Below are positions 1-64,000 of a stretch of 64,000 bases of DNA, in pieces. Each line of letters starts with the position of its first letter. The stretch's first letter is position 1. The stretch is taken from NCBI GenBank assembly GCA_964016885.1, contig OZ024762.1, positions 29,140,001 to 29,204,000 of the forward strand, in the 5' to 3' direction. The notes under the pieces are model-generated. The model worked only from the letters and a program-made list of their open reading frames with translations, did no database searches and was not told where the DNA came from. Both the position numbers and the translations under genes were made by a program. Source of the stretch: Eledone cirrhosa (Eukaryota).

Positions 1-3000
1 CAGTCTTCTCTCCCACACACTACAACTTATCCCTCTTATACACAGTTTCTCTCTCAACACATCACATGTCCATACCATCTCAGTCTTCTCTCCCACACAC
101 CACAACTTATCCCTCTTATACAGTTTCTCTCTCAATACATCACATGTCCATACTATCTCAGTTTTCTCTCCCACACACGACAACTTATCCCTCTTATACC
201 CAGTTTCTCTCTCAACACATCACATGTCCATACCATCTCAGTGTCTTCTCCCACACACTACAACTTATCCCTCTTATACACAGTTTCTCTCTCAACACAT
301 CACATGTCCATACCATCTCAGTCTTCTCTCCCACACACCACAACTTATCCCTCTTATACACAGTTTCTCTCTCAACACATCACATGTCGATACTATCTCA
401 GTCTTCTCTCCCAATCACTACAACTTATCCCTCTTATACACAGTTAATCTCTCAACACATCACATGTCCATGCCATCTCAGTCTTCTCTCCCACTCACTA
501 CAACTTATCCCTCTTATACACAGTTAATCTCTCAACACATCACATGTCCATACCATCTCAGTTTTCTCTCCCACTCACTACAACTTATCCCTCTTATACA
601 CAGTTTCTCTCTCAACACATCACATGTCCATACCATCTCAGTCTTCTCTCCCACACACCACAATTTATCCCTCTTATACACAGTTTCTCTCTCAACACAT
701 CAAATGTCCATACCATCTCAGTCTTCTCTCCCACACACCACAACTTATCCCTCTTATACACAGTTTCTCTCTCAACTCATCAAATGTCCATACCATCTCA
801 GTCTTCTCTCCCACACACCACCACTTATCCCTCTTATACACAGTTAATCTCTCAACACATCACATGTCCATACCATCTCAGTCTTCTCCCCCACACACCA
901 CAACTTATCCCTCTTATACACAGTTTCTCTCTCAACACATCACATGTCCATACCATCTCAGTCTTCTCTCCCACACACCACAACTTATCCCTCTTATACA
1001 CAGTTTCTCTCTCAATACATCACATGTCCATACTATCTCAGTTTTCTCTCCCACACACTACAACTTATCCCTCTTATACCCAGTTTCTCTCTCAACACAT
1101 CACATGTCCATACCATCTCAGTGTCTTCTCCCACACACTACAACTTATCCCTCTTATACACAGTTTCTCTCTTAACACATCACATGTCCATACCATCTCA
1201 GTCTTCTCTCCCACACACCACAACTTATCCCTCTTATACACAGTTTCTCTCTCAATACATCACATGTCCATACCATCTCAGTCTTCTCTCCGACACACTA
1301 CAACTTATCCCTCTTATACCCAGTTTCTCTCTCAACACATCACATGTCCATACCATCTCAGTGTCTTCTCCCACACACTACAACTTATCCCTCTTATACA
1401 CAGTTTCTCTCTCAACACATCACATGTCCATACCATCTCAGTCTTCTCTCCCACACACTACAACTTATCCCTCTTATACACAGTTTCTCTCTCAACACAT
1501 CACATGTCCATACCATCTCAGTCTTCTCTCCCACACACCACAACTTATCCCTCTTATACACAGTTTCTCTCTCAATACATAACATGTCCATACTATCTCA
1601 GTTTTCTCTCCCACACACGACAACTTATCCCTCTTATACACAGTTTCTCTCTCAACACATCACATGTCCATACCATCTCAGTCTTCTCTCCCACACACCA
1701 CAACTTATCCCTCTTATACACAGTTTCTCTCTCAATACATCACATGTCCATACCATCTCAGTCTTCTCTCCCACACACCACAACTTATCCCTCTTATACA
1801 CAGTTTCTCTCTCAACACATCACATGTCCATACCATCTCAGTGTCTTCTCCCACACACTACAACTTATCCCTCTTATACACAGTTTCTCTCTCAACACAT
1901 CACATGTCCATACCATCTCAGTCTTCTCTCCCACACACCACAACTTATCCCTCTTATACACAGTTTCTCTCTCAACACATCACATGTCCATACCATCTCA
2001 GTCTTCTCTCCCAATCACTACAACTTATCCCTCTTATACACAGTTTCTCTCTCAACACATCACATGTCCATACCATCTCAGTGTCTTCTGCCACACACTA
2101 CAACTTATCCCTCTTATACACAGTTTCTCTCTCAACACATCACATGTCCATACCATCTCAGTCTTCTCTCCCACACACCACAACTTATCCCTCTTATACA
2201 CAGTTTCTCTCTCAATACATCACATGTCCATACCATCTCAGTCTTCTCTCCCACACACCACAACTTATCCCTCTTATACACAGTTTCTCTCTCAATACAT
2301 CACATGTCCATACTATCTCAGTTTTCTCTCCCACACACTACAACTTATCCCTCTTATACACAGTTTCTCTCTCAACACATCACATGTCGATACCATCTCA
2401 GTCTTCTCTCCCACACACCACAACTTATCCCTCTTATACACAGTTTCTCTCTCAATACATCACATGTCCATACCATCTCAGTCTTCTCTCCCACACACCA
2501 CAACTTATCCCTCTTATACACAGTTTCTCTCTCAACACATCACATGTCCATACCATCTCAGTCTTCTCTCCCACACACCACAATTTATCCCTCTTATACC
2601 CAGTTTCTCTCTCAACACATCACATGTCCATACCATCTCAGTGTCTTCTCCCACACACTACAACTTATCCCTCTTATACACAGTTTCTCTCTCAACACAT
2701 CACATGTCCATACCATCTCAGTCTTCTCTCCCACACACCACAACTTATCCCTCTTATACACAGTTTCTCTCTCAACACATCACATGTCCATACCATCTCA
2801 GTCTTCTCTCCCAATCACTACAACTTATCCCTCTTATACACAGTTTCTCTCTCAACACATCACATGTCCATACCATCTCAGTGTCTTCTCCCACACACTA
2901 CAACTTATCCCTCTTATACACAGTTTCTCTCTCAACACATCACATGTCCATACCATCTCAGTCTTCTCTCCCACACACCACAACTTATCCCTCTTATACA

Positions 3001-6000
3001 CAGTTTCTCTCTCAATACATCACATGTCCATACCATCTCAGTCTTCTCTCCCACACACTACAACTTATCCCTCTTATACACAGTTTCTCTCTCAACACAT
3101 CACATGTCCATACCATCTCAGTCTTCTCTCCCACACACCACAACTTATCCCTCTTATACAGTTTCTCTCTCAATACATCACATGTCCATACTATCTCAGT
3201 TTTCTCTCCCACACACGACAACTTATCCCTCTTATACCCAGTTTCTCTCTCAACACATCACATGTCCATACCATCTCAGTGTCTTCTCCCACACACTACA
3301 ACTTATCCCTCTTATACACAGTTTCTCTCTCAACACATCACATGTCCATACCATCTCAGTCTTCTCTCCCACACACCACAACTTATCCCTCTTATACACA
3401 GTTTCTCTCTCAACACATCACATGTCGATACTATCTCAGTCTTCTCTCCCAATCACTACAACTTATCCCTCTTATACACAGTTAATCTCTCAACACATCA
3501 CATGTCCATGCCATCTCAGTCTTCTCTCCCACTCACTACAATTTATCCCTCTTATACACAGTTTCTCTCTCAACACATCAAATGTCCATACCATCTCAGT
3601 CTTCTCTCCCACACACCACAACTTATCCCTCTTATACACAGTTTCTCTCTCAACTCATCAAATGTCCATACCATCTCAGTCTTCTCTCCCACACACCACC
3701 ACTTATCCCTCTTATACACAGTTAATCTCTCAACACATCACATGTCCATACCATCTCAGTCTTCTCCCCCACACACCACAACTTATCCCTCTTATACACA
3801 GTTTCTCTCTCAACACATCACATGTCCATACCATCTCAGTCTTCTCTCCCACACACCACAACTTATCCCTCTTATACACAGTTTCTCTCTCAATACATCA
3901 CATGTCCATACTATCTCAGTTTTCTCTCCCACACACTACAACTTATCCCTCTTATACCCAGTTTCTCTCTCAACACATCACATGTCCATACCATCTCAGT
4001 GTCTTCTCCCACACACTACAACTTATCCCTCTTATACACAGTTTCTCTCTTAACACATCACATGTCCATACCATCTCAGTCTTCTCTCCCACACACCACA
4101 ACTTATCCCTCTTATACACAGTTTCTCTCTCAATACATCACATGTCCATACCATCTCAGTCTTCTCTCCGACACACTACAACTTATCCCTCTTATACCCA
4201 GTTTCTCTCTCAACACATCACATGTCCATACCATCTCAGTGTCTTCTCCCACACACTACAACTTATCCCTCTTATACACAGTTTCTCTCTCAACACATCA
4301 CATGTCCATACCATCTCAGTCTTCTCTCCCACACACTACAACTTATCCCTCTTATACACAGTTTCTCTCTCAACACATCACATGTCCATACCATCTCAGT
4401 CTTCTCTCCCACACACCACAACTTATCCCTCTTATACACAGTTTCTCTCTCAATACATAACATGTCCATACTATCTCAGTTTTCTCTCCCACACACGACA
4501 ACTTATCCCTCTTATACACAGTTTCTCTCTCAACACATCACATGTCCATACCATCTCAGTCTTCTCTCCCACACACCACAACTTATCCCTCTTATACACA
4601 GTTTCTCTCTCAATACATCACATGTCCATACCATCTCAGTCTTCTCTCCCACACACCACAACTTATCCCTCTTATACACAGTTTCTCTCTCAACACATCA
4701 CATGTCCATACCATCTCAGTGTCTTCTCCCACACACTACAACTTATCCCTCTTATACACAGTTTCTCTCTCAACACATCACATGTCCATACCATCTCAGT
4801 CTTCTCTCCCACACACCACAACTTATCCCTCTTATACACAGTTTCTCTCTCAACACATCACATGTCCATACCATCTCAGTCTTCTCTCCCAATCACTACA
4901 ACTTATCCCTCTTATACACAGTTTCTCTCTCAACACATCACATGTCCATACCATCTCAGTGTCTTCTGCCACACACTACAACTTATCCCTCTTATACACA
5001 GTTTCTCTCTCAACACATCACATGTCCATACCATCTCAGTCTTCTCTCCCACACACCACAACTTATCCCTCTTATACACAGTTTCTCTCTCAATACATCA
5101 CATGTCCATACCATCTCAGTCTTCTCTCCCACACACCACAACTTATCCCTCTTATACACAGTTTCTCTCTCAATACATCACATGTCCATACTATCTCAGT
5201 TTTCTCTCCCACACACGACAACTTATCCCTCTTATACACAGTTTCTCTCTCAACACATCACATGTCCATACCATCTCAGTCTTCTCTCCCACACACCACA
5301 ACTTATCCCTCTTATACACAGTTTCTCTCTCAATACATCACATGTCCATACCATCTCAGTCTTCTCTCCCACACACCACAACTTATCCCTCTTATACACA
5401 GTTTCTCTCTCAACACATCACATGTCCATACCATCTCAGTCTTCTCTCCCACACACCACAATTTATCCCTCTTATACCCAGTTTCTCTCTCAACACATCA
5501 CATGTCCATACCATCTCAGTGTCTTCTCCCACACACTACAACTTATCCCTCTTATACACAGTTTCTCTCTCAACACATCACATGTCCATACCATCTCAGT
5601 CTTCTCTCCCACACACCACAACTTATCCCTCTTATACACAGTTTCTCTCTCAACACATCACATGTCCATACCATCTCAGTCTTCTCTCCCAATCACTACA
5701 ACTTATCCCTCTTATACACAGTTTCTCTCTCAATACATCACATGTCCATACTATCTCAGTTTTCTCTCCCACACACGACAACTTATCCCTCTTATACCCA
5801 GTTTCTCTCTCAACACATCACATGTCCATACCATCTCAGTGTCTTCTCCCACACACTACAACTTATCCCTCTTATACACAGTTTCTCTCTCAACACATCA
5901 CATGTCCATACCATCTCAGTCTTCTCTCCCACACACCACAACTTATCCCTCTTATACACAGTTTCTCTCTCAACACATCACATGTCGATACCATCTCAGT

Positions 6001-9000
6001 CTTCTCTCCCAATCACTACAACTTATCCCTCTTATACACAGTTAATCTCTCAACACATCACATGTCCATGCCATCTCAGTCTTCTCTCCCACTCACTACA
6101 ACTTATCCCTCTTATACACAGTTAATCTCTCAACACATCACATGTCCATACCATCTCAGTTTTCTCTCCCACTCACTACAACTTATCCCTCTTATACACA
6201 GTTTCTCTCTCAACACATCACATGTCCATACCATCTCAGTCTTCTCTCCCACACACCACAATTTATCCCTCTTATACACAGTTTCTCTCTCAACACATCA
6301 AATGTCCATACCATCTCAGTCTTCTCTCCCACACACCACAACTTATCCCTCTTATACACAGTTTCTCTCTCAACTCATCAAATGTCCATACCATCTCAGT
6401 CTTCTCTCCCACACACCACCACTTATCCCTCTTATACACAGTTAATCTCTCAACACATCACATGTCCATACCATCTCAGTCTTCTCCCCCACACACCACA
6501 ACTTATCCCTCTTATACACAGTTTCTCTCTCAACACATCACATGTCCATACCATCTCAGTCTTCTCTCCCACACACCACAATTTATCCCTCTTATACACA
6601 GTTTCTCTCTCAATACATAACATGTCCATACTATCTCAGTTTTCTCTCCCACACACGACAACTTATCCCTCTTATACACAGTTTCTCTCTCAACACATCA
6701 CATGTCCATACCATCTCAGTCTTCTCTCCCACACACCACAACTTATCCCTCTTATACACAGTTTCTCTCTCAATACATCACATGTCCATACCATCTCAGT
6801 CTTCTCTCCCACACACCACAACTTATCCCTCTTATACACAGTTTCTCTCTCAACACATCACATGTCCATACCATCTCAGTCTTCTCTCCCACACACCACA
6901 ATTTATCCCTCTTATACCCAGTTTCTCTCTCAACACATCACATGTCCATACCATCTCAGTGTCTTCTCCCACACACTACAACTTATCCCTCTTATACACA
7001 GTTTCTCTCTCAACACATCACATGTCCATACCATCTCAGTCTTCTCTCCCACACACCACAACTTATCCCTCTTATACACAGTTTCTCTCTCAACACATCA
7101 CATGTCCATACCATCTCAGTCTTCTCTCCCAATCACTACAACTTATCCCTCTTATACACAGTTTCTCTCTCAACACATCACATGTCCATACCATCTCAGT
7201 GTCTTCTCCCACACACTACAACTTATCCCTCTTATACACAGTTTCTCTCTCAACACATCACATGTCCATACCATCTCAGTCTTCTCTCCCACACACTACA
7301 ACTTATCCCTCTTATACACAGTTTCTCTCTCAACACATCACATGTCCATACCATCTCAGTCTTCTCTCCCACACACCACAACTTATCCCTCTTATACAGT
7401 TTCTCTCTCAATACATCACATGTCCATACTATCTCAGTTTTCTCTCCCACACACGACAACTTATCCCTCTTATACCCAGTTTCTCTCTCAACACATCACA
7501 TGTCCATACCATCTCAGTGTCTTCTCCCACACACTACAACTTATCCCTCTTATACACAGTTTCTCTCTCAACACATCACATGTCCATACCATCTCAGTCT
7601 TCTCTCCCACACACCACAACTTATCCCTCTTATACACAGTTTCTCTCTCAACTCATCAAATGTCCATACCATCTCAGTCTTCTCTCCCACACACCACCAC
7701 TTATCCCTCTTATACACAGTTAATCTCTCAACACATCACATGTCCATACCATCTCAGTCTTCTCCCCCACACACCACAACTTATCCCTCTTATACACAGT
7801 TTCTCTCTCAACACATCACATGTCCATACCATCTCAGTCTTCTCTCCCACACACCACAACTTATCCCTCTTATACACAGTTTCTCTCTCAATACATCACA
7901 TGTCCATACTATCTCAGTTTTCTCTCCCACACACTACAACTTATCCCTCTTATACCCAGTTTCTCTCTCAACACATCACATGTCCATACCATCTCAGTGT
8001 CTTCTCCCACACACTACAACTTATCCCTCTTATACACAGTTTCTCTCTTAACACATCACATGTCCATACCATCTCAGTCTTCTCTCCCACACACCACAAC
8101 TTATCCCTCTTATACACAGTTTCTCTCTCAATACATCACATGTCCATACCATCTCAGTCTTCTCTCCGACACACTACAACTTATCCCTCTTATACCCAGT
8201 TTCTCTCTCAACACATCACATGTCCATACCATCTCAGTGTCTTCTCCCACACACTACAACTTATCCCTCTTATACACAGTTTCTCTCTTAACACATCACA
8301 TGTCCATACCATCTCAGTCTTCTCTCCCACACACCACAACTTATCCCTCTTATACACAGTTTCTCTCTCAATACATCACATGTCCATACCATCTCAGTCT
8401 TCTCTCCGACACACTACAACTTATCCCTCTTATACCCAGTTTCTCTCTCAACACATCACATGTCCATACCATCTCAGTGTCTTCTCCCACACACTACAAC
8501 TTATCCCTCTTATACACAGTTTCTCTCTCAACACATCACATGTCCATACCATCTCAGTCTTCTCTCCCACACACTACAACTTATCCCTCTTATACACAGT
8601 TTCTCTCTCAACACATCACATGTCCATACCATCTCAGTCTTCTCTCCCACACACCACAACTTATCCCTCTTATACACAGTTTCTCTCTCAATACATAACA
8701 TGTCCATACTATCTCAGTTTTCTCTCCCACACACGACAACTTATCCCTCTTATACACAGTTTCTCTCTCAACACATCACATGTCCATACCATCTCAGTCT
8801 TCTCTCCCACACACCACAACTTATCCCTCTTATACACAGTTTCTCTCTCAATACATCACATGTCCATACCATCTCAGTCTTCTCTCCCACACACCACAAC
8901 TTATCCCTCTTATACACAGTTTCTCTCTCAACACATCACATGTCCATACCATCTCAGTGTCTTCTCCCACACACTACAACTTATCCCTCTTATACACAGT

Positions 9001-12000
9001 TTCTCTCTCAACACATCACATGTCCATACCATCTCAGTCTTCTCTCCCACACACCACAACTTATCCCTCTTATACACAGTTTCTCTCTCAACACATCACA
9101 TGTCCATACCATCTCAGTCTTCTCTCCCAATCACTACAACTTATCCCTCTTATACACAGTTTCTCTCTCAACACATCACATGTCCATACCATCTCAGTGT
9201 CTTCTGCCACACACTACAACTTATCCCTCTTATACACAGTTTCTCTCTCAACACATCACATGTCCATACCATCTCAGTCTTCTCTCCCACACACCACAAC
9301 TTATCCCTCTTATACACAGTTTCTCTCTCAATACATCACATGTCCATACCATCTCAGTCTTCTCTCCCACACACTACAACTTATCCCTCTTATACACAGT
9401 TTCTCTCTCAACACATCACATGTCCATACCATCTCAGTCTTCTCTCCCACACACCACAACTTATCCCTCTTATACAGTTTCTCTCTCAATACATCACATG
9501 TCCATACTATCTCAGTTTTCTCTCCCACACACGACAACTTATCCCTCTTATACCCAGTTTCTCTCTCAACACATCACATGTCCATACCATCTCAGTCTTC
9601 TCTCCCACACACCACAACTTATCCCTCTTATACACAGTTTCTCTCTCAATACATCACATGTCCATACCATCTCAGTCTTCTCTCCCACACACCACAACTT
9701 ATCCCTCTTATACACAGTTTCTCTCTCAACACATCACATGTCGATACCATCTCAGTCTTCTCTCCCAATCACTACAACTTATCCCTCTTATACACAGTTA
9801 ATCTCTCAACACATCACATGTCCATGCCATCTCAGTCTTCTCTCCCACTCACTACAACTTATCCCTCTTATACACAGTTAATCTCTCAACACATCACATG
9901 TCCATACCATCTCAGTTTTCTCTCCCACTCACTACAACTTATCCCTCTTATACACAGTTTCTCTCTCAACACATCACATGTCCATACCATCTCAGTCTTC
10001 TCTCCCACACACCACAACTTATCCCTCTTATACCCAGTTTCTCCCTCAACACATCACATGTCCATACCATCTCAGTCTTCTCTCCCACACACTACAACTT
10101 ATCTCTCTAATACATAGTTTCTCTCTCAACGCATCACATGTCCATTCCATCTCAGTCTTCTCTCCCTCACACCACAACTTATCCCTCTTATACACAGTTA
10201 ATCTCTTAACACATCACATGTCCATACCATCACTGTCTTCTCTCCCACACACTACAACTTATCCCTCTTATACACAGTTTCTCTCTCAACACAAAATGTC
10301 CATACCATCACAGTCATCTCTCTCACACACTACGACTTATCCCTCTTATACACAGTTTCTCTCTCAACACATCACATGTCCATACCACCTCAGTCATCTC
10401 TCCCACACACCACAACTTATCCCTCTTATACCCAGTTTCTTTCTCAACTCATCACATGTCCATACCATCTCAGTCTTCTCTCACACACACTACAACTTAT
10501 CCCTCTTATACACAGTTTCTCTCTCAACACATCACATATCCATACCACCTCAGTCTTCTCTCCCACACACCACAACTTATCCCTCTTATACACAGTTTCT
10601 CTCTCAACACAAAATGTCCATACCATCTCAGTCATCTCTCTCACACACCACAACTTATCCCTCTTATACCCAGTTTCTCTCTCAACTCATCACATGTCCA
10701 TACTATCTCAGTTTTCTCTCCCACACACGACAACTTATCCCTCTTATACCCAGTTTCTCTCTCAACACATCACATGTCCATACCATCTCAGTGTCTTCTC
10801 CCACACACTACAACTTATCCCTCTTATACACAGTTTCTCTCTCAACACATCACATGTCCATACCATCTCAGTCTTCTCTCCCAATCACTACAACTTATCC
10901 CTCTTATACACAGTTAATCTCTCAACACATCACATGTCCATGCCATCACAGTCTTCTCTCCCACTCACTACAACTTATCCCTCTTATACACAGTTAATCT
11001 CTCAACACATCACATGTCCATACCATCTCAGTTTTCTCTCCCACTCACTACAACTTATCCCTCTTATACACAGTTTCTCTCTCAACACATCACATGTCCA
11101 TACCATCTCAGTCTTCTCTCCCACACACCACAACTTATCCGTCTTATACCCAGTTTCTCCCTCAACACATCACATGTCCATACCATCTCAGTCTTCTCTC
11201 CCACACACTACAACTTATCCCTCTTATACACAGTTTCTCTCTCAACGCATCACATGTCCATTCCATCTCAGTCTTCTCTCCCACACACTACAACTTATCC
11301 CTCTTATACACAGTTAATCTCTTAACTCATCACATATCCATACCATCTCAGTCTTCTCTCCCACACACTACAACTTCTCTCTCAACACATCACATGTCCA
11401 TACCATCTCAGTTTTCTCTCCCACACACGACAACTTATCCCTCTTATACACAGTTTCTCTCTCAACACATCACATGTCCATACCATCTCAGTCTTCTCTC
11501 CCACACACCACAACTTATCCCTCTTATACACAGTTTCTCTCTCAATACATCACATGTCCATACCATCTCAGTCTTCTCTCCCACACACCACAACTTATCC
11601 CTCTTATACACAGTTTCTCTCTCAACACATCACATATCCATACCATCTCAGTCTTCTCTCCCACACACCACAATTTATCCCTCTTATACCCAGTTTCTCT
11701 CTCAACACATCACATGTCCATACCATCTCAGTGTCTTCTCCCACACACTACAACTTATCCCTCTTATACACAGTTTCTCTCTCAACACATCACATGTCCA
11801 TACCATCTCAGTCTTCTCTCCCACACACCACAACTTATCCCTCTTATACACAGTTTCTCTCTCAACACATCACATGTCCATACCATCTCAGTCTTCTCTC
11901 CCAATCACTACAACTTATCCCTCTTATACACAGTTTCTCTCTCAACACATCACATGTCCATACCATCTCAGTGTCTTCTCCCACACACTACAACTTATCC

Positions 12001-47800: not shown

Positions 47801-49345
47801 CACACCACAACTTATCCCTCTTATACCCAGTTTCTCTCTCAACATATCACATGTCCATACCATCTCAGTCTTCTCTCCCACACACTACAACTTATCAATC
47901 TGATACCCAGTTTCTCTCTCAACACATCACATGTCCATACCATCTCAGTCTTCTCTCCCACACACTACAACTTATCCCTCTTATACACAGTTTCTCTCTC
48001 AACACATCATATGTCCATACCATCTCAGTCTTCTCTCCCACACACCACAACTTATCCCTCTTATACACAGTTTCTCCCTCAACACATCACATGTCCATAC
48101 CATCTCAGTCTTCTCTCCCACACACTACAACTTATCCCTCTTATACACAGTTTCTCTCTCAACGCATCACCTGTCCATTCCATCTCAGTCTTCTCTCCCA
48201 CACACCACAACTTATCCCTCTTATACACAGTTTCTCTCTCAACACATCACATGTCTATACCATCTCAGTCTTCTCTCCCACACACCACAACTTATCCCTC
48301 TTATACACAGTTTCTCTCTCAACACATCACATGTCGATACCATCTCAGTCTTCTCTCCCAATCACTACAACGTATCCCTCTTATACACAGTTAATCTCTC
48401 AACACATCACATGTCCATGCCATCTTAGTCTTCTCTCCCACTCACTACAACTTATCCCTCTTATACACAGTTTCTCTCTCAACACATCACATGTCCATAC
48501 CATCTCAGTCTTCTCTCCCACACACCACAACTTATCCCTCTTATACACAGTTTCTCCCTCAACACATCACATGTCCATACCATCTCAGTCTTCTCTCCCA
48601 CACACTACAACTTATCCCTCTTTTACACAGTTTCTCTCTCAACACATCACATGTCCATTCCATCTCAGTCTTCTCTCCCTCACACCACAACTTATCCCTC
48701 TTATACACAGTTAATCTCTTAACACATCACATGTCCATACCATCACAGTCTTCTCTCCCACACACTACAACTTATCCCTCTTATACACAGTTTCTCTCTC
48801 AACACATCACATATCCATACCACCTCAGTCTTCTCTCCCACACACCACAACTTAACCCTCTAATACACAGTTTCTCTCTCAACACAAAATGTCCATACCA
48901 TCTCAGTCATCTCTCTCACACACTACGACTTATCCCTCTTATACACAGTTTCTCTCTCAACACATCACATGTCCATACCACCTCAGTCATCTCTCCCACA
49001 CACCACAACTTATCCCTCTTATACCCAGTTTCTCTCTCAACTCATCACATGTCCATACCATCTCAGTCTTCTCTCCTACACACTACAACTTATCCCTCTT
49101 ATACACAGTTTCTCTCTCAACACATCACATGTCCATACCACCTCAGTGATCTCTCCCACACACCACAACTTATCCCTCTTATACACAGTTTCTCTCTGAA
49201 CACATCACATGTCCATAGCATCTCAGTCATCTCTCTCACACACTACGACTTATCCCTCTTATACACAGTTTCTCTCTCAACACATCACATGTCCATTCCA
49301 TCTCAGTCTTCTCTCCCACACACCACAACTTATCCCTCTTATACC

Positions 49346-51263: not shown

Positions 51264-53421
51264 CAGTTTCTCTCTCAACACGTCACATGTTCATACCACC
51301 TCAGTCTCCTCTCCCACACACCACAACTTATCCCTCTTATACACAGTTTCTCTCTCAACACATCACATGTTCATACCATCTCAGTCTCCTCTCCCACACA
51401 CCACAACTTATCCCTCTTATACACAGTTTCTCTGTCAACACATCACATGTCCATACCATCTCAGTCATCTCTCCCACACACCACAACTTATCCCTCTTAT
51501 ACCCAGTTTCTATCTCAACTCATCACATGCCTATTCCATCTCAGTCTTCTCTCCCACACACCACAACTTATCCCTCTTATACACAGTTTCTCTCTCAACT
51601 CAGCACATGTCCATACCATCTCAGTCTTCTCTCCCACACACTACAACTTATCCCTCTTATACACAGTTTCTCTCTCATCTCATCACATGTCCATTCCATC
51701 TCAGTCTTCTCTCCCACACACCACAACTTATCCCTCTTATACACAGTTTCTCTCTCAACACATCACATGTCCAAACCATCTCAGTCTTCTCCCCCACACA
51801 CTACAACTTATCCCTCTTATACACAGTTTCTCTATCAACACATCACATGTCCATACCACCTCAGTCTTCTCTCCTGTACACTACAACTTATCCCTCTTAT
51901 ACACAGTTTCTCTCTCAACACATCACATGTCCATACCATCTCAGTCTTCTCTCCCACACACTATAACTTATCCCTCTGATACACAGTTTCTCTCTCAACA
52001 CATCACATGTCCATACCATCTCAGTCTTCTCTCCCACACACTACAACTTATGCCTCTTATACACAGTTTCTCTCTCAACACATCACATGTCCATACCACC
52101 TCAGTCATCTCTCCCATACACCACAACTTATCCCTCTTATACCTAGTTTCTCTCTCAACTCATCACATGTCCATTCCATCTCAGTCTTCTCTCCCACACA
52201 CCACAACTTATCCCTCTGATACACAGTTTCTCTCTCAACTCATCACACGTCCATACCACCTCAGTCTTCTCTCCCACACACCACAACTTATCCCTCTTAT
52301 ACGCAGTTTCTCTCTCAACTCATCACATGTCCATACCGTCTCAGTCTTCTCTCCCACACACCACAACTTATCCCTCTTATACCCAGTTTCTCTCTCAACT
52401 CATCACATGTCCATACCATCTCAGTCTTCTCTCCCACACACTACAACTTATCCCACTTATACACAGTTTCTCTCTCAACACATCACATGTCCATACCACC
52501 TCAGTCATCTCTCACACACCCCACAACTTATCCCTCTTATACCCAGTTTCTTTCTCAACACATCACATGTCCATACCACCTCAGTCATCTCTCCCACACA
52601 CCACAACTTATCCCTCTTATACCCAGTTTCTCTCTCAACTCATCACATGTCCATACCATCTCAGTCTTCTCTCCCACACACTACAACTTATCCCTCTTAT
52701 ACACAGTTTCTCTCTCAACGCATCACATGTCCATACCAGCTCAGTGATCTCTCCCACACACCACAACTTATCCCTCTTATACACAGTTTCTCTCTCAACA
52801 CATCACATATCCATACCACCTCAGTCTTCTCTCCCACACACCACAACTTATCCCCCTTATACACAGTTTCTCTCTCAACACAAAATGTCCATACCATCTC
52901 AGTCATCTCTCTCACACACTACGACTTATCCCTCTTATACACAGTTTCTCTCTCAACTCATCACATGTCCATTCCATCTCAGTCTTCTCTCCCACACACC
53001 ACAACTTATCCCTCTTATACCCAGTTTCTCTCTCAACACATCACATGTCCATACCACCTCAGTCATCTCTCCCACACACCACAACTTATCCCTCTTATAC
53101 ACAGTTTCTCTCTCAACTCATCACATGTCCATACCACCTCAGTCATCTCTCCCACACACCACAACTTATCCCTCTTATACACAGTTTCTCTCTCAACACA
53201 TCACATGTACATACCATCTCAATCTTCTCTCCCACACACCACAACTTATCCCTCTTATACACAGTTAATCTCTCAACACATCACATGACCATACCACCTC
53301 AGTCATCTCTCTCACACACCACAACTTATCCCTCTTATACACAGTTTCTCTCTCAACACATCACATGTCCATACCACCTCAGTCTTCTCTCCCACACACC
53401 ACAACTTATCCCTCTTATACA

Positions 53422-54221
53422 CAGTTTCTCTCTCAACACATTACATGTCCATACCACCTCAGTCTCCTCTCCCGTACACTACATTCTATCCCTCTCAGAT
53501 ACAGTTTCTCTCTCAACACATCACATGTCCATACCACCTCAGTCTCCTCGCCCGTACACTACATTCTATCCCTCTCAGATACAGTTTCTCTCTCAACACA
53601 TTACATGTCCATACCACCTCAGTCTCCTCTCCCGTACACTACATTCTATCCCTCTCAGATACAGTTTCTCTCTCAACACATTACATGTCCATACCACCTC
53701 AGTCTCCTCTCCCGTACACTACATTCTATCCCTCTCAGATACAGTTTCTCTCTCAACACATCACATGTCCATACCACCTCAGTCTCCTCTCCCGTACACT
53801 ACATTCTATCCCTCTCAGATACAGTTTCTCTCTCAACACATCACATGTCCATACCACCTCAGTCTCCTCTCCCGTACACTACATTCTATCCTTCTCAGAC
53901 ACAGTTTCTCTCTCAACACATCACATGTCCATACCACCTCAGTCTATTCTCCCGTACACTACATTCTATCCCTCTCAGACACAGTTTCTCTCTCAACACA
54001 TCACATGTCCATACCACCTCAGTATCCTCTCCCGTACACTACATTCTATCCTTCTCAGAGACAGTTTCTCTCTCAACACATTACATGTCCATACCACCTC
54101 AGTCTCCTCTCCCGTACACTACATTCTATCCCTCTCAGACACAGTTTCTCTCTCAACACATCACATGTACATACCACCTCAGTCTCCTCTCCCGTACACT
54201 ACATTATATCCTTCTCAGACA
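53422..54221. repeat. Type-B block 6 (10 monomers, copy of the distal part of block 5)
   Basis: Shares the private variants CTCCTCGCCCGTA and CAGTATCCTC with block 5. Confidence 0.9.
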
Positions 54222-57200
54222 CAGTTTCTCTCTCAACACGTCACATGTCCATACCACCTCAGTCTCCTCTCCCACACACCACAACTTATCCCTCTTATAC
54301 ACAGTTTCTCTCTCAACACATCACATGTTCATACCATCTCAGTCTCCTCTCCCACACACCACAACTTATCCCTCTTATACACAGTTTCTCTGTCAACACA
54401 TCACATGTCCATACCATCTCAGTCATCTCTCCCACACACCACAACTTATCCCTCTTATACCCAGTTTCTATCTCACACTCATCACATGCCTATTCCATCT
54501 CAGTCTTCTCTCCCACACACCACAACTTATCCCTCTTATACACAGTTTCTCTCTCAACTCATCACATGTCCATACCATCTCAGTCTTCTCTCCCACACAC
54601 TACAACTTATCCCTCTTATACACAGTTTCTCTCTCAACTCATCACATGTCCATTCCATCTCAGTCTTCTCTCCCACACACCACAACTTATCCCTCTTATA
54701 CACAGTTTCTCTCTCAACACATCACATGTCCAAACCATCTCAGTCTTCTCCCCCACACACTACAACTTATCCCTCTTATACACAGTTTCTCTATCAACAC
54801 ATCACATGTCCATACCACCTCAGTCTTCTCTCCTGTACACTACAACTTATCCCTCTTATACACAGTTTCTCTCTCAACACATCACATGTCCATACCATCT
54901 CAGTCTTCTCTCCCACACACTATAACTTATCCCTCTGATACACAGTTTCTCTCTCAACACATCACATGTCCATACCATCTCAGTCTTCTCTCCCACACAC
55001 TACAACTTATGCCTCTTATACACAGTTTCTCTCTCAACACATCACATGTCCATACCACCTCAGTCATCTCTCCCATACACCACAACTTATCCCTCTTATA
55101 CCTAGTTTCTCTCTCAACTCATCACATGTCCATTCCATCTCAGTCTTCTCTCCCACACACCACAACTTATCCCTCTGATACACAGTTTCTCTCTCAACTC
55201 ATCACACGTCCATACCACCTCAGTCTTCTCTCCCACACACCACAACTTATCCCTCTTATACGCAGTTTCTCTCTCAACTCATCACATGTCCATACCGTCT
55301 CAGTCTTCTCTCCCACACACCACAACTTATCCCTCTTATACCCAGTTTCTCTCTCAACTCATCACATGTCCATACCATCTCAGTCTTCTCTCCCACACAC
55401 TACAACTTATCCCACTTATACACAGTTTCTCTCTCAACACATCACATGTCCATACCACCTCAGTCATCTCTCACACACACCACAAGTTATCCCTCTTATA
55501 CCCAGTTTCTTTCTCAACACATCACATGTCCATACCACCTCAGTCATCTCTCCCACACACCACAACTTATCCCTCTTATACCCAGTTTCTCTCTCAACTC
55601 ATCACATGTCCATACCATCTCAGTCTTCTCTCCCACACACTACAACTTATCCCTCTTATACACAGTTTCTCTCTCAACGCATCACATGTCCATACCAGCT
55701 CAGTGATCTCTCCCACACACCACAACTTATCCCTCTTATACACAGTTTCTCTCTCAACACATCACATATCCATACCACCTCAGTCTTCTCTCCCACACAC
55801 CACAACTTATCCCCCTTATACACAGTTTCTCTCTCAACACAAAATGTCCATACCATCTCAGTCATCTCTCTCACACACTACGACTTATCCCTCTTATACA
55901 CAGTTTCTCTCTCAACTCATCACATGTCCATTCCATCTCAGTCTTCTCTCCCACACACCACAACTTATCCCTCTTATACCCAGTTTCTCTCTCAACACAT
56001 CACATGTCCATACCACCTCAGTCATCTCTCCCACACACCACAACTTATCCCTCTTATACACAGTTTCTCTCTCAACTCATCACATGTCCATACCACCTCA
56101 GTCATCTCTCCCACACACCACAACTTATCCCTCTTATACACAGTTTCTCTCTCAACACATCACATGTCCATACCATCTCAATCTTCTCTCCCACACACCA
56201 CAACTTATCCCTCTTATACACAGTTAATCTCTCAACACATCACATGACCATACCACCTCAGTCATCTCTCTCACACACCACAACTTATCCCTCTTATACA
56301 CAGTTTCTCTCTCAACACATCACATGTCCATACCACCTCAGTCTTCTCTCCCACACACCACAACTTATCCCTCTTATACACAGTTTCTCTCTGAAGACAT
56401 CACATGTCCATACCACCTCAGTCATCTCTCCCACACACCACAACTTATCCCTCTTATACACAGTTTCTCTCTCAACACATCACATGTCCATACCATCTCA
56501 ATCTTCTCTCCCACACACCACAACTTATCCCTCTTATACACAGTTAATCTCTCAACACATCACATGACCATACCACCTCAGTCATCTCTCTCACACACCA
56601 CAACTTATCCCTCTTATACCCAGTTTCTCTCTCAACTCATCACATGTCCATACCATCTCAGTCTTCTCTCCCACACACTACAACTTATCCCTCTTATACA
56701 CAGTTTCTCTCTCAACGCATCACATGTCCATACCAGCTCAGTGATCTCTCCCACACACCACAACTTATCCCTCTTATACACAGTTTCTCTCTCAACACAT
56801 CACATATCCATACCACCTCAGTCTTCTCTCCCACACACCACAACTTATCCCCCTTATACACAGTTTCTCTCTCAACACAAAATGTCCATACCATCTCAGT
56901 CATCTCTCTCACACACTACGACTTATCCCTCTTATACACAGTTTCTCTCTCAACTCATCACATGTCCATTCCATCTCAGTCTTCTCTCCCACACACCACA
57001 ACTTATCCCTCTTATACCCAGTTTCTCTCTCAACACATCACATGTCCATACCACCTCAGTCATCTCTCCCACACACCACAACTTATCCCTCTTATACACA
57101 GTTTCTCTCTCAACTCATCACATGTCCATACCACCTCAGTCATCTCTCCCACACACCACAACTTATCCCTCTTATACACAGTTTCTCTCTCAACACATCA

Positions 57201-57418
57201 CATGTACATACCATCTCAATCTTCTCTCCCACACACCACAACTTATCCCTCTTATACACAGTTAATCTCTCAACACATCACATGACCATACCACCTCAGT
57301 CATCTCTCTCACACACCACAACTTATCCCTCTTATACACAGTTTCTCTCTCAACACATCACATGTCCATACCACCTCAGTCTTCTCTCCCACACACCACA
57401 ACTTATCCCTCTTATACA

Positions 57419-58218
57419 CAGTTTCTCTCTCAACACATTACATGTCCATACCACCTCAGTCTCCTCTCCCGTACACTACATTCTATCCCTCTCAGATACA
57501 GTTTCTCTCTCAACACATCACATGTCCATACCACCTCAGTCTCCTCGCCCGTACACTACATTCTATCCCTCTCAGATACAGTTTCTCTCTCAACACATTA
57601 CATGTCCATACCACCTCAGTCTCCTCTCCCGTACACTACATTCTATCCCTCTCAGATACAGTTTCTCTCTCAACACATTACATGTCCATACCACCTCAGT
57701 CTCCTCTCCCGTACACTACATTCTATCCCTCTCAGATACAGTTTCTCTCTCAACACATCACATGTCCATACCACCTCAGTCTCCTCTCCCGTACACTACA
57801 TTCTATCCCTCTCAGATACAGTTTCTCTCTCAACACATCACATGTCCATACCACCTCAGTCTCCTCTCCCGTACACTACATTCTATCCTTCTCAGACACA
57901 GTTTCTCTCTCAACACATCACATGTCCATACCACCTCAGTCTATTCTCCCGTACACTACATTCTATCCCTCTCAGACACAGTTTCTCTCTCAACACATCA
58001 CATGTCCATACCACCTCAGTATCCTCTCCCGTACACTACATTCTATCCTTCTCAGAGACAGTTTCTCTCTCAACACATTACATGTCCATACCACCTCAGT
58101 CTCCTCTCCCGTACACTACATTCTATCCCTCTCAGACACAGTTTCTCTCTCAACACATCACATGTACATACCACCTCAGTCTCCTCTCCCGTACACTACA
58201 TTATATCCTTCTCAGACA
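57419..58218. repeat. Type-B block 7 (10 monomers, duplicate of block 6)
   Basis: Offset 3997 bp from block 6. Identical ORFs at 53445 and 57442. Confidence 0.9.
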
Positions 58219-61200
58219 CAGTTTCTCTCTCAACACGTCACATGTCCATACCACCTCAGTCTCCTCTCCCACACACCACAACTTATCCCTCTTATACACA
58301 GTTTCTCTCTCAACACATCACATGTTCATACCATCTCAGTCTCCTCTCCCACACACCACAACTTATCCCTCTTATACACAGTTTCTCTGTCAACACATCA
58401 CATGTCCATACCATCTCAGTCATCTCTCCCACACACCACAACTTATCCCTCTTATACCCAGTTTCTATCTCACACTCATCACATGCCTATTCCATCTCAG
58501 TCTTCTCTCCCACACACCACAACTTATCCCTCTTATACACAGTTTCTCTCTCAACTCATCACATGTCCATACCATCTCAGTCTTCTCTCCCACACACTAC
58601 AACTTATCCCTCTTATACACAGTTTCTCTCTCAACTCATCACATGTCCATTCCATCTCAGTCTTCTCTCCCACACACCACAACTTATCCCTCTTATACAC
58701 AGTTTCTCTCTCAACACATCACATGTCCAAACCATCTCAGTCTTCTCCCCCACACACTACAACTTATCCCTCTTATACACAGTTTCTCTATCAACACATC
58801 ACATGTCCATACCACCTCAGTCTTCTCTCCTGTACACTACAACTTATCCCTCTTATACACAGTTTCTCTCTCAACACATCACATGTCCATACCATCTCAG
58901 TCTTCTCTCCCACACACTATAACTTATCCCTCTGATACACAGTTTCTCTCTCAACACATCACATGTCCATACCATCTCAGTCTTCTCTCCCACACACTAC
59001 AACTTATGCCTCTTATACACAGTTTCTCTCTCAACACATCACATGTCCATACCACCTCAGTCATCTCTCCCATACACCACAACTTATCCCTCTTATACCT
59101 AGTTTCTCTCTCAACTCATCACATGTCCATTCCATCTCAGTCTTCTCTCCCACACACCACAACTTATCCCTCTGATACACAGTTTCTCTCTCAACTCATC
59201 ACACGTCCATACCACCTCAGTCTTCTCTCCCACACACCACAACTTATCCCTCTTATACGCAGTTTCTCTCTCAACTCATCACATGTCCATACCGTCTCAG
59301 TCTTCTCTCCCACACACCACAACTTATCCCTCTTATACCCAGTTTCTCTCTCAACTCATCACATGTCCATACCATCTCAGTCTTCTCTCCCACACACTAC
59401 AACTTATCCCACTTATACACAGTTTCTCTCTCAACACATCACATGTCCATACCACCTCAGTCATCTCTCACACACACCACAACTTATCCCTCTTATACCC
59501 AGTTTCTTTCTCAACACATCACATGTCCATACCACCTCAGTCATCTCTCCCACACACCACAACTTATCCCTCTTATACCCAGTTTCTCTCTCAACTCATC
59601 ACATGTCCATACCATCTCAGTCTTCTCTCCCACACACTACAACTTATCCCTCTTATACACAGTTTCTCTCTCAACGCATCACATGTCCATACCAGCTCAG
59701 TGATCTCTCCCACACACCACAACTTATCCCTCTTATACACAGTTTCTCTCTCAACACATCACATATCCATACCACCTCAGTCTTCTCTCCCACACACCAC
59801 AACTTATCCCCCTTATACACAGTTTCTCTCTCAACACAAAATGTCCATACCATCTCAGTCATCTCTCTCACACACTACGACTTATCCCTCTTATACACAG
59901 TTTCTCTCTCAACTCATCACATGTCCATTCCATCTCAGTCTTCTCTCCCACACACCACAACTTATCCCTCTTATACCCAGTTTCTCTCTCAACACATCAC
60001 ATGTCCATACCACCTCAGTCATCTCTCCCACACACCACAACTTATCCCTCTTATACACAGTTTCTCTCTCAACTCATCACATGTCCATACCACCTCAGTC
60101 ATCTCTCCCACACACCACAACTTATCCCTCTTATACACAGTTTCTCTCTCAACACATCACATGTCCATACCATCTCAATCTTCTCTCCCACACACCACAA
60201 CTTATCCCTCTTATACACAGTTAATCTCTCAACACATCACATGACCATACCACCTCAGTCATCTCTCTCACACACCACAACTTATCCCTCTTATACACAG
60301 TTTCTCTCTCAACACATCACATGTCCATACCACCTCAGTCTTCTCTCCCACACACCACAACTTATCCCTCTTATACACAGTTTCTCTCTGAAGACATCAC
60401 ATGTCCATACCACCTCAGTCATCTCTCCCACACACCACAACTTATCCCTCTTATACACAGTTTCTCTCTCAACACATCACATGTCCATACCATCTCAATC
60501 TTCTCTCCCACACACCACAACTTATCCCTCTTATACACAGTTAATCTCTCAACACATCACATGGCCATACCACCTCAGTCATCTCTCTCACACACCACAA
60601 CTTATCCCTCTTATACCCAGTTTCTCTCTCAACACATCACATGTCCATACCACCTCAGTCTTCTCTCCCACACACCACAACTTATCCCTCTTATACACAG
60701 TTTCTCTCTCAACACATCACATGTCCATACCACCTCAGTCATCTCTCCCACACACCACAACTTATCCCTCTTATACACAGTTTCTCTCTCAACACATCAC
60801 ATGTCCATTCCATCTCAGTCTTCTCTCCCACACACTACAACTTATCCCTCTGATACCCAGTTTCTCTCTCAACACATCACATCTCCATACCATCTCAGTC
60901 TTCTCTCCCACACACCACAACTTATCCCTCTTATACAGAGTTTCTCTCTCAACACGTCACATGTCCATACCATCTCAGTCTTCTCCTCCGCTCACTACAA
61001 CTTATCCTTCTGATACACAGTTTCTCTCCCACACACCACAACTTATCTCTCTTATACACAGTTTCTCTCTCAACACATCACATGTACATACCATCTTAGT
61101 CTTCTCTCGCACAAACCACAATTTATCCCTCTTATACCCAGTTTCTCTCTCAACTCATCACATGTCCATACCATCTCAGTCTTCTCTCCCACACATTACA

Positions 61201-62098
61201 ACTTATGCCTCTTATACACAGTTTCACACTCAACACATCACATGTCCATACCATCGCAGCCTTCTCTCCCACACACCACAACTTATCCCTCTTATACCCA
61301 GTTTCTCTCTCAATACATCACATGTTCATACCATCGCAGCCTTCTCTCCCACACACCACAACTTATCCCTCTTATACCCAGTTTCTCTCTCAACATATCA
61401 CATGTCCATACCATCTCAGTCTTCTCTCCCACACACTACAACTTATCAATCTGATACCCAGTTTCTCTCTCAACACATCACATGTCCATACCATCTCAGT
61501 CTTCTCTCCCACACACTACAACTTATCCCTCTTATACACAGTTTCTCTCTCAACACATCATATGTCCATACCATCTCAGTCTTCTCTCCCACACACCACA
61601 ACTTATCCCTCTTATACACAGTTTCTCCCTCAACACATCACATGTCCATACCATCTCAGTCTTCTCTCCCACACACTACAACTTATCCCTCTTATACACA
61701 GTTTCTCTCTCAACGCATCACCTGTCCATTCCATCTCAGTCTTCTCTCCCACACACCACAACTTATCCCTCTTATACACAATTTCTCTCTCAACTCATCA
61801 CATGTTCATACCATCTCAGTCTTCTCTCCCACACACCACAACTTATCCCTCTTATACACAGTTTCTCTCTCAACACATCACATGTCCATAGCATCTCAGT
61901 CATCTCTCTCACACACTACGACTTATCCCTCTTATACACAGTTTCTCTCTCAACACATCACATGTCCATTCCATCTCAGTCTTCTCTCCCACACACCACA
62001 ACTTATCCCTCTTATACCCAGTTTCTCTCTCAACACATCACATGTCCATACCACCTCAGTCATCTCTCCCACACACCACAACTTATCCCTCTTATACA

Positions 62099-62818
62099 CA
62101 GTTTCTCTCTCAACTCATCACATGTCCATACCACCTCAGTCTCCTCTCCCGTACACTACATTCTATCCTTCTCAGATACAGTTTCTCTCTCAACACATTA
62201 CATGTCCATACCACCTCAGTCTCCTCTGCCGTACACTACATTCTATCCCTCTCAGACACAGTTTCTCTCTCTACACATCACATGTCCATACCACCTCAGT
62301 CTCCTGTCCCGTACACTACATTCTATCCCTCTCAGACACAGTTTCTCTCTCAACACATCACATGTCCATACCACCTCAGTCTCCTCTCCCGTACACTACA
62401 TTCTATCCCTCTCAGACACAGTTTCTCTCTCAACACATCACATGTCCATACCACCTCAGTCTCCTGTCCCGTACACTACATTCTATCCTTCTCAGACACA
62501 GTTTCTCTCTCAACACATCACATGTCCATACCACCTCAGTCTCCTCTCCCGTACACTACATTCTATCCCTCTCAGACACAGTTTCTCTCTCAACACATCA
62601 CATGTCCATACCACCTCAGTCTCCTCTCCCGTACACTACATTCTATCCTTCTCAGATACAGTTTCTCTCTCAACACATTACATGTCCATACCACCTCAGT
62701 CTCCTCTGCCGTACACTACATTCTATCCCTCTCAGACACAGTTTCTATCACAACACATCACATGTCCATACCACCTCAGTCTCCTCTCCCGTACACTACA
62801 TTCTATCCCTCTCAGACA
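62099..62818. repeat. Type-B block 8 (9 monomers, different variant order)
   Basis: Diagnostic B substitutions plus the private variants CTCTCTACAC (~62270) and TTCTATCACAAC (~62745). Confidence 0.88.
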
Positions 62819-63298
62819 CAGTTTCTCTCTCAACACATCACATGTCCATACCATCGCAGCCTTCTCTCCCACACACCACAACTTATCCCTGTTATACACA
62901 GTTTCACACTCATCACATCACATGTCCATTCCATCTCAGTCTTCTCTCCCACACACCACAACTTATCCCTCTTATACACAGTTTCTCTCTCAACTCATCA
63001 CATGTCCATACCACCTCAGTCATCTCTCCCACACACCACAACTTATCCCTCTTATACACAGTTTCTCTCTCAACACATCACATGTACATACCATCTCAAT
63101 CTTCTCTCCCACACACCACAACTTATCCCTCTTATACACAGTTAATCTCTCAACACATCACATGACCATACCACCTCAGTCATCTCTCTCACACACCACA
63201 ACTTATCCCTCTTATACACAGTTTCTCTCTCAACACATCACATGTCCATACCACCTCAGTCTTCTCTCCCACACACCACAACTTATCCCTCTTATACA

Positions 63299-64000
63299 CA
63301 GTTTCTCTCTCAACACATTACATGTCCATACCACCTCAGTCTCCTCTCCCGTACACTACATTCTATCCCTCTCAGATACAGTTTCTCTCTCAACACATCA
63401 CATGTCCATACCACCTCAGTCTCCTCGCCCGTACACTACATTCTATCCCTCTCAGATACAGTTTCTCTCTCAACACATTACATGTCCATACCACCTCAGT
63501 CTCCTCTCCCGTACACTACATTCTATCCCTCTCAGATACAGTTTCTCTCTCAACACATTACATGTCCATACCACCTCAGTCTCCTCTCCCGTACACTACA
63601 TTCTATCCCTCTCAGATACAGTTTCTCTCTCAACACATCACATGTCCATACCACCTCAGTCTCCTCTCCCGTACACTACATTCTATCCCTCTCAGATACA
63701 GTTTCTCTCTCAACACATCACATGTCCATACCACCTCAGTCTCCTCTCCCGTACACTACATTCTATCCTTCTCAGACACAGTTTCTCTCTCAACACATCA
63801 CATGTCCATACCACCTCAGTCTATTCTCCCGTACACTACATTCTATCCCTCTCAGACACAGTTTCTCTCTCAACACATCACATGTCCATACCACCTCAGT
63901 ATCCTCTCCCGTACACTACATTCTATCCTTCTCAGAGACAGTTTCTCTCTCAACACATTACATGTCCATACCACCTCAGTCTCCTCTCCCGTACACTACA
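63299..64000. repeat. Type-B block 9 (truncated by window end, same variant order as blocks 6/7)
   Basis: CTCCTCGCCC at 63421, CTATTCTCCC at ~63821, and CAGTATCC plus CTCAGAGACA at ~63900-63940. Confidence 0.9.

What the first reader, a model, noticed from the sequence alone, without database searches (positions are those of the whole stretch)
1..64000. Satellite of at least 64 kb built from an 80-bp piece of an RTE-clade LINE coding sequence
Seen: on the minus strand one full monomer length is an open 28-codon stretch, DVLREKL(C/G)IRGISC(G/S)VWERRLRWYGHVM. Established: RTE-clade non-LTR retrotransposons (RTE-1, BovB and relatives) carry a conserved RLRW(F/Y)GHV.R motif after the RT domain, preceded at this spacing by an (I/L)R.K segment. 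Inference: the whole array grew from a small internal duplication within one LINE ORF, which was then amplified about 800-fold or more. TE-derived satellites are known, but many described cases come from LTRs, UTRs or internal repeats, so a monomer that is entirely protein-coding LINE sequence is less usual and may be an undescribed family. From memory, and unverified, very similar wording (LREKL..R.I.C.V.ERRLRWYGHV) occurs in cephalopod RTE-derived predicted proteins.
Basis: partly seen in the sequence, partly recalled or inferred. Interest (0 to 1): 0.85.

Follow-up and report, generated by a model that had tools for sequence, protein, structure and literature searches.

The report
Satellite grown from LINE coding sequence
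This 173-kb satellite is about 2,100 head-to-tail copies of an 80-base piece of the protein-coding part of an abundant retrotransposon; the same piece is tandemly repeated inside more than 150 other copies of that element, almost all on the small chromosomes, which likely catches satellite DNA being born again and again after insertion.

Summary
Confirmed and extended. The window is a pure 80-bp array (about 796 monomers) inside a 173-kb, ~2,125-monomer array near the end of contig C23. The monomer is a segment of the single ORF of an RTE-like LINE (endonuclease, RT, PHD finger, (ATG)n tail); 24 window monomers are identical to the segment in a young single-copy element. The array is non-coding (80 is not a multiple of 3; no codon constraint). 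The flanks are found elsewhere: at least 151 resident LINE copies carry 2 or more units at the same breakpoint. They do not form one clade (AU p 1.7e-7), and none of the 100 listed lies on C1-C9, although the four giant contigs hold about half of the parent copies. Small contigs are rich in minisatellites of all kinds. Best reading: location-dependent duplication after insertion at a 3-6 bp microhomology, then expansion and ectopic exchange. LINE-ORF-derived satellites are known; the recurrent, chromosome-restricted series from dimer to 173 kb was not found in the papers searched.

The parts
1..64000 (-). 80-bp satellite array, about 796 monomers, LINE coding sense on the minus strand; the middle of a 173-kb array that runs about 34 kb before and 75 kb after the window
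298..381 (-). Example monomer plus 4 bases: the 28-codon stretch LREKL...RLRWYGHVM, colinear with residues ~890-918 of the parent ORF
1..23500 (-). Zone of B-subfamily-type monomers only, with local higher-order periods of roughly 1.0-1.6 kb and of several kb
   Evidence: (spacing of identical hits)
23533..26488 (-). Block of about 35 A-subfamily-type monomers (first of eight such blocks)
31333..63947 (-). Seven further A-type blocks (31,333-32,532; 36,972-38,571; 43,089-44,848; 49,366-51,283; 53,428-54,241; 57,425-58,238; 62,119-63,947) alternating with B-type monomers; 145 of 787 parsed window monomers are A-type, 24 identical to the young single-copy LINE segment
29300..61092 (-). Higher-order repeat of about 5.6-6.3 kb, marked by a 121-bp variant monomer near 29,428, 35,067, 41,344, 47,541 and 61,092

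Best explanation
The window is a non-coding satellite whose 80-bp unit is a piece of the ORF of an abundant RTE-like LINE, and it is the longest array found of a genome-wide family that likely starts when resident LINE copies on small chromosomes duplicate this segment after insertion. Step 1 (shown): the LINE leaves thousands of 5'-truncated copies that keep the 3' end, where the segment lies. Step 2 (inferred): slippage or unequal exchange between the short direct repeats ATG(T/A)G and ATG(C/T)G that bound the segment 80 bases apart makes a dimer. Step 3 (shown as states, inferred as order): dimers grow locally to 3-60 units. Step 4 (inferred from mosaics): arrays trade units with ectopic copies, so A- and B-type units end up in one array. 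Step 5 (inferred): one array in a distal satellite block of C23 lost or left its LINE flanks through microhomology joins to neighbouring repeats and expanded by kb-scale duplications to 173 kb. The driver is predicted to be a high local rate of recombination or repair on small chromosomes and chromosome ends.
For: Parent: natural 990-aa frame with endonuclease (E 3e-4, 5'-cut), RVT_1 (1e-28), PHD (6e-6), then the segment, RGRP motif and an (ATG)n tail. In-place arrays with both or one LINE flank on C5, C7, C9, C10, C12, C13, C21, C25-C28. 151 loci match junction + last unit + LINE continuation for subfamily A, 7 for one B variant. 7,093 exact junction matches, 1,137 of them in the C23 array. 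Flank tree: 22 array-bearing against 38 single copies need 17 label changes (shuffled mean 18.2); one clade rejected, p-AU 1.7e-7 (9 truncated rows not counted). Unit type agrees with own 3' flank subfamily in 14 of 15 pure arrays among 18 parsed that were not chosen for an A-type last unit. Arrays carry all entry variants seen in singles. Variants fixed in every unit of one array (L144 three, L127 one). Location: no junction match on C1-C4, C6, C8, C11; 0 of 97 placed array loci on C1-C4 against 24 of 43 placed copies sampled by a flank marker, Fisher p 1.3e-15; 99 of 781 identical single-unit copies lie on C1. Minisatellite cover of 10-kb samples: median 15% on C23/25/26/27 against 0.3% on C1-C4, 20 each, p 0.0014. 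No codon constraint: 21 of 46 synonymous and 83 of 188 non-synonymous changes seen, p 0.87.
Against: The microhomology is only 3-6 bases, weak for a breakpoint reused at over 150 loci, and the region has no notable fold (z +1.25). Array-bearing copies with the CATG-richer entry are not clearly enriched (8 of 25 against 3 of 12). Three of 18 arrays are A/B mosaics and one pure-B array has an A flank; units of several distant arrays match C23 units with 0 differences while 13 single B copies differ by 3-8: all this fits spread of an existing junction as well. The flank tree has only 4 well-supported branches of 66. No recombination map was available. Mean (not median) minisatellite cover is similar on large and small contigs, 0.116 against 0.155, because 2 of 20 large-contig samples are solid satellite.
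Confidence: 0.6

Rival explanations
1. The junction arose once or a few times and then spread from array to single copy by ectopic gene conversion (template switch into an existing array and back), so that it behaves like an infectious tract among LINE copies that lie on neighbouring small chromosomes.
For: Exactly the same breakpoint everywhere despite 3-6 bp of homology; A/B mosaic arrays and the A blocks inside the C23 array; units shared letter for letter between distant arrays; dense clusters on C27 2-10 Mb, C25 3-9 Mb, C20 9.7-13 Mb.
Against: Unit type follows the flank in 14 of 15 pure arrays; the B dimer L093 keeps parent-type letters in both units and a B-type junction letter; many unrelated tandem units, including ones that look derived from other LINE families, occur on the same contigs, so de novo duplication is common there anyway.
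Confidence: 0.27
2. A LINE master that already carried the tandem repeat was retrotransposed in trans, as with Ogre-borne repeats in legumes, and its copies then expanded.
For: Array-bearing copies have normal 3' ends and tails; A-type dimers on C5, C10 and C12 are near-identical.
Against: One clade rejected; two subfamilies and all entry variants carry arrays; the family inserts across C1 yet no junction is found on C1-C4.
Confidence: 0.06
3. The large array has been kept for a function, for example as centromeric, subtelomeric or small-RNA-producing heterochromatin that would silence the parent LINE.
For: It lies in a satellite block of at least 400 kb, 1.6 Mb from the contig end, next to a 45-bp satellite holding a TTAGGG-like word. 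Any transcript would match a very young LINE subfamily.
Against: Its 1,137 junction matches are one locus of many and the family is absent from the largest chromosomes, so it is not a pan-centromeric repeat; no codon constraint.
Confidence: 0.05
4. The arrays are assembly artefacts.
For: Length of the C23 array was not checked with raw long reads.
Against: 398 distinct parsed monomers with nested higher-order structure; an LTR-flanked insertion with a 4-bp target duplication inside the array; the back-80 joint stands in raw reads of a separate study of the same species label (236 reads, 12 start sites, run X12).
Confidence: 0.02

Closest known systems
LINE-ORF-derived satellites: PROsat (Phodopus roborovskii, L1 ORF2), chicken HinfI/SCR1 (CR1 3' UTR plus partial ORF2), common cetacean satellite (L1 3' end), as listed in PMC9659126 (passages and table seen)
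   Same: Satellite monomer taken from the 3' part or ORF of a non-LTR retrotransposon.
   Different: Here the monomer is wholly in-ORF, only 80 bp, from an RTE-like element, up to 100% identical to young parent copies, and all stages from dimer to 173 kb stand in one genome.
Alu-, B1- and MaLR-derived minisatellite families; Haber-Louis short-direct-repeat model (PMC6947457, PMC3389668; passages seen)
   Same: Tandem repeats begin inside dispersed elements at or after insertion, at hot regions of the element, some bounded by short direct repeats, and grow by local duplication.
   Different: PMC3389668 reports no obvious genomic hotspots in human and mean copy numbers near 2.3-2.4 for Alu-derived repeats; here one breakpoint is used at 151 or more loci, is missing from the four largest contigs and reaches 2,100 units.
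Ogre LTR-retrotransposon-derived satellites of Lathyrus sativus (PMC7004042; abstract seen)
   Same: Many short arrays inside dispersed elements, a few expanded to long satellites in favoured chromosome regions.
   Different: There the short arrays are carried within LTR elements and expand at primary constrictions; here the parent is a LINE whose ordinary copies have one unit, and the favoured compartment is small chromosomes and distal regions.
RTE-clade LINEs: HmRTE-e01 (PMC2887409; passages seen) and octopus RTE-2_OV (PMC9115989; section 6 and passages seen)
   Same: One ORF of about 1,000-1,100 aa with AP endonuclease and RT, and a 3' end running straight into a microsatellite; RTE-2_OV also has a zinc finger.
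   Different: The parent here has a PHD-type finger after the RT (Pfam PF00628 above cut-off); identity with RTE-2_OV could not be tested because its sequence was not found in the 8 supplementary files searched.

Membership tests
Satellite DNA | Long head-to-tail array (tens to hundreds of kb) of one monomer | tested here: met
   about 2,125 monomers over 173 kb
Satellite DNA | Non-coding, no protein-level constraint | tested here: met
   80-bp unit shifts frame; longest stop-free run on the LINE strand 81 codons; synonymous and non-synonymous variants equally seen, p 0.87
Satellite DNA | Heterochromatic location | not testable with these tools
   no chromatin data; lies in a satellite block of at least 400 kb
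TE-derived tandem repeat | Monomer colinear with a segment of a dispersed element of the same genome | tested here: met
   24 window monomers identical to the L158 segment; 781 single-unit copies identical over 200 bases
TE-derived tandem repeat | Array embedded in the parent element | tested here: inconclusive
   not met at the C23 array; met at many other loci
RTE-clade LINE (parent) | AP endonuclease and RT in one ORF of about 1,000 aa | tested here: met
   L272 990-aa frame: Exo_endo_phos_2 E 3e-4 (below curated cut-off, copy is 5'-cut) and RVT_1 E 1e-28; relatives of 1,030-1,100 aa carry PF03372 and PF00078
RTE-clade LINE (parent) | Very short 3' UTR ending in a simple repeat | tested here: met
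   stop codon followed at once by (ATG)n; feature as stated in PMC2887409
RTE-clade LINE (parent) | No separate ORF1 upstream | not tested
   the long copies read (L270, L272) are 5'-truncated
RTE-clade LINE (parent) | RT groups with RTE-1/BovB in a tree | not testable with these tools
   no named RTE reference among homologues or cluster members; PDB holds only L1 and R2 proteins at E about 1e-20
Centromeric satellite | Present as a large array on most chromosomes | tested here: not met
   no junction match on C1-C4, C6, C8, C11

The most novel reading that the evidence does not exclude
A very young LINE subfamily, spread evenly over the genome in hundreds of identical copies, acts as a built-in reporter showing that the small chromosomes of this animal convert dispersed repeats into tandem arrays at a far higher rate than its giant chromosomes, with one junction spreading between LINE copies by ectopic conversion and feeding a 173-kb satellite with monomers from two subfamilies. 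On C27 the density of array-bearing copies (at least 44 in 22.4 Mb) approaches the genome-wide density of parent entries (6,614 in 2,996 Mb), so a large share of copies there may already be converted.
Probability: 0.3. Interest if true: 0.72.

Novelty: new variant of a known kind. Interest (0 to 1): 0.5.

Why it matters
How the first duplication of a minisatellite or satellite arises is an open question (PMC3389668 states that the proposed mechanisms explain about 6% of human TE-derived tandem repeats). Here the same 80 bases sit in thousands of near-identical copies across the genome, and are duplicated in one chromosome class and not in another, so sequence and position can be separated without an experiment. 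It also gives every stage, from dimer to 173-kb array with higher-order repeats, and evidence that arrays exchange units across loci. Practically, such arrays will inflate RTE coverage and qPCR copy-number estimates for probes in this region and can yield false gene models.

Tried and rejected
DNA search of the own genome with one monomer gave nothing because common words are skipped; not evidence of rarity. Pfam had no match to the 31-aa peptide alone. The predicted RT and RGRP flanks at the C23 array ends were looked for and are absent. Idea that a longer CATG microhomology predisposes copies: not supported (8 of 25 arrays against 3 of 12 singles). Idea of a hairpin joining the breakpoints: not supported. 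Coding function: rejected. The 45-bp and 34-bp neighbour satellites show no significant translated match to the parent ORF. No RNA holder listed among public runs: no evidence either way. Runs with other organism codes hold parts of the LINE and one (X8) a contig with the same joint; since their origin is unknown I draw no cross-species conclusion. The first tree mislabelled two array loci as single; relabelled. My unit parser drifts at indels, so 2,116 units and 398 distinct monomers are approximate; the anchor count is 2,125. The parser recovered 25 of the 30 loci L171-L200 and missed some of L131-L150, so tables cover 43 arrays, not all fetched. L132 and L136 share a non-LINE flank and are not independent. 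Earlier scan findings: none for this genome. The 2015 octopus genome paper is not held.
Full report
OBSERVATION. The window is one tandem array of period 80, 796 anchors with 757 of 795 spacings exactly 80. The window is G000:C23:29,140,001-29,204,000 in a 3.0-Gb assembly. Walking out the array spans C23:29,105,820-29,278,710, about 2,125 monomers, 1.6 Mb from the end of a 30.8-Mb contig, interrupted once by a 2.1-kb element with two identical 365-bp terminal repeats and a 4-bp target duplication.

THE PARENT. Copies of the sequence downstream of a C25 array led to dispersed elements, most with a single colinear unit or cut inside it. A natural copy, L272, has a 990-aa frame with a 5'-cut endonuclease domain (E 3e-4), RVT_1 (E 1e-28), a PHD finger (E 6e-6), then MLRWMC, the unit, RGRPRKTW, stop and (ATG)n. 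1,977 of 7,999 scored candidates are relatives with the same architecture at up to 56% identity, unnamed as to clade; an O. bimaculoides model carries the motif at 61%. This architecture matches RTE elements as described in PMC2887409 (passages) and PMC9115989 (section 6); PMC10294476 (passages) reports RTE-BovB greatly expanded in cephalopods. The clade was not tested by a tree, and the host is octopus-like by homology only. Two subfamilies, A and B, differ at about nine unit positions and 16 flank positions. A is very young: 781 single-unit copies are identical over 200 bases. Exact entry patterns count 844 and 6,614 copies. The window monomer scores 105 bits on L272 against at most 34.6 for 500 shuffles, and 24 window monomers equal the single-copy A segment letter for letter.

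THE C23 ARRAY IS NOT A SIMPLE IN-PLACE EXPANSION. Upstream (LINE sense) it joins a 45-bp satellite through a shared CTGA-ATG word; downstream it joins a 49-bp repeat of a SINE-like element that ends in the same 3' tail as the LINE (the SINE label is my recall of octopus repeats, not from a call). It holds 1,732 B-type and 384 A-type parsed units, the A-type in blocks, repeated with a 5.6-6.3-kb higher-order unit in the window. A and B types mirror the two LINE subfamilies, so at least one import from another locus is needed. No protein-level constraint is seen (21 of 46 synonymous, 83 of 188 non-synonymous possible changes present, 8 of them stops; p 0.87).

THE FAMILY. The junction 29-mer has 7,093 exact matches, 1,137 in this array, so most units lie elsewhere, possibly in other large arrays that the listings did not reach. 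Three arrays on C25 (about 64, 23 and 4 units) run into LINE 3' ends, two of them with LINE sequence upstream too. A 107-base pattern of junction, last unit and LINE continuation finds 151 A-type loci at up to 3 mismatches and a B variant 7. The 43 arrays parsed have 2-43 units (two are cut by the locus edge, most were chosen through an A-type last unit). The breakpoint lies in ATG(T/A)G at entry and ATG(C/T)G at exit, 3-6 bases of identity. On a tree of the 3' flank the 22 array-bearing copies are scattered among 38 singles (17 changes, shuffled mean 18.2) and one clade is rejected, p-AU 1.7e-7 (nine truncated rows not counted; only 4 of 66 branches are well supported). Among 18 arrays not chosen for an A last unit, 14 of 15 pure arrays match their own flank subfamily, one does not, three are mixed. 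The back-80 joint is in raw reads of a separate study (236 reads, 12 starts).

POSITION. The listing starts at C5: no junction on C1-C4 (1,617 Mb, 54% of the assembly), C6, C8 or C11; one search agrees (35 of 35 on C21 or later). Of the 100 rows listed (all 86 with 0-1 mismatch and the first 14 with 2; 51 rows not shown), 44 are on C27, 22 on C25, 10 on C20, 8 on C26, 13 on other contigs from C10 to C24, 3 unplaced, none on C1-C9 (my count). In contrast 24 of 48 copies sampled by a flank marker are on C1-C4 (Fisher p 1.3e-15 on placed rows) and 99 of 781 identical singles on C1. On C7 the five array loci listed are within 0.21 Mb of the end. Twenty evenly spaced 10-kb samples each give median minisatellite cover of 15% on C23/25/26/27 and 0.3% on C1-C4 (p 0.0014), though means are close because two large-contig samples are solid satellite. 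One small-contig repeat, 82 bp, reads MRWLGHVL, the same motif region of another LINE-like family (weak score). I could not measure the share of copies converted on any one small contig.

MECHANISM. Shown: LINE origin, in-place arrays at many loci, two subfamilies, non-monophyly, compartment bias, mosaic large array. Inferred: order of events, microhomology-led first step, recombination as driver (by analogy with the Haber-Louis model as summarised in PMC6947457 and PMC3389668, passages seen; the link of minisatellites to high-recombination distal regions in vertebrates is recalled). I give 0.6 to recurrent duplication plus exchange and 0.27 to spread of one or a few junctions by ectopic conversion; the weak microhomology and units shared between distant arrays keep the second alive, and both may act.

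WHAT IS KNOWN. LINE ORF-derived satellites exist (PROsat, HinfI, PMC9659126, passages and table), as do element-borne short arrays that expand in favoured regions (PMC7004042, abstract). Ten paper searches (listings seen) showed no description of this repeat or of this compartment bias; the O. vulgaris repeat annotation PMC13282606 (first third read, rest by term search) has no occurrence of 'satellite' as a word start. Repbase and Dfam could not be searched, four supplementary files of PMC9115989 were not searched, and from recall the 2015 octopus genome paper mentions a 70-90-bp tandem repeat at C2H2 zinc-finger clusters, which could be this family or another; a zinc-finger gene lies 11 kb from this array. 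Novelty is therefore provisional.

VERDICT. Real, correctly attributed to a LINE ORF, probably functionless, a new variant of a known kind. Interest 0.5: the satellite alone is ordinary, the natural experiment around it is not.

Noticed in passing
G000 C23:29,212,280-29,214,375 (L032/L056): 2.1-kb element inserted in the array, two identical 365-bp terminal repeats, 4-bp target duplication, no long frame inside: a very recent non-autonomous LTR-type insertion.
   Followed up: partly
G000 C23:29,278,705 to at least 29,506,000 (L062-L064, L045-L048): 45-bp G-rich satellite containing a TTAGGG-like word directly abutting the array; continuous for 25 kb and present in all four samples out to 225 kb. 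Origin unknown.
   Followed up: partly
L051 411-5,822 and L052 3,601-4,398: Downstream of the array: 49-bp repeat of a SINE-like element sharing the LINE 3' tail, a 34-bp repeat of about 5 kb with an inversion, and a C2H2 zinc-finger exon (84-bp period, 8 linker motifs).
   Followed up: partly
L258 912-1,559; L251 1,789-5,221; L254 7,958-8,670; L252 4,481-5,272: Tandem repeats of 82, 123, 65 and 155 bp on small contigs that look cut from other dispersed families; the 82-bp unit reads like the RW.GHV motif of another LINE family.
   Followed up: partly
L272 1,790-4,762 and P0002, P0005, P0009 and others: A large, mostly unnamed LINE lineage with a PHD finger between the RT and the C-terminal region; two paper searches did not show a description.
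   Followed up: partly
window 1-64,000 plus strand: Stop-free frames up to 1,962 codons on the antisense strand, a by-product of G-poor composition; likely source of false gene models.
   Followed up: no
L220 (C1:40.0 Mb), L223 (C1:280 Mb), L210 (C18:10 Mb): Other large satellites: 42-bp; 196/227-bp GC-rich; 16-bp telomere-like unit.
   Followed up: no
L073 1,126-1,492: A different, 288-bp tandem duplication in the same LINE 3' end on C26.
   Followed up: no
G000 contig lengths: Four giant contigs of 379-443 Mb beside many of 22-60 Mb, a strongly bimodal karyotype.
   Followed up: no
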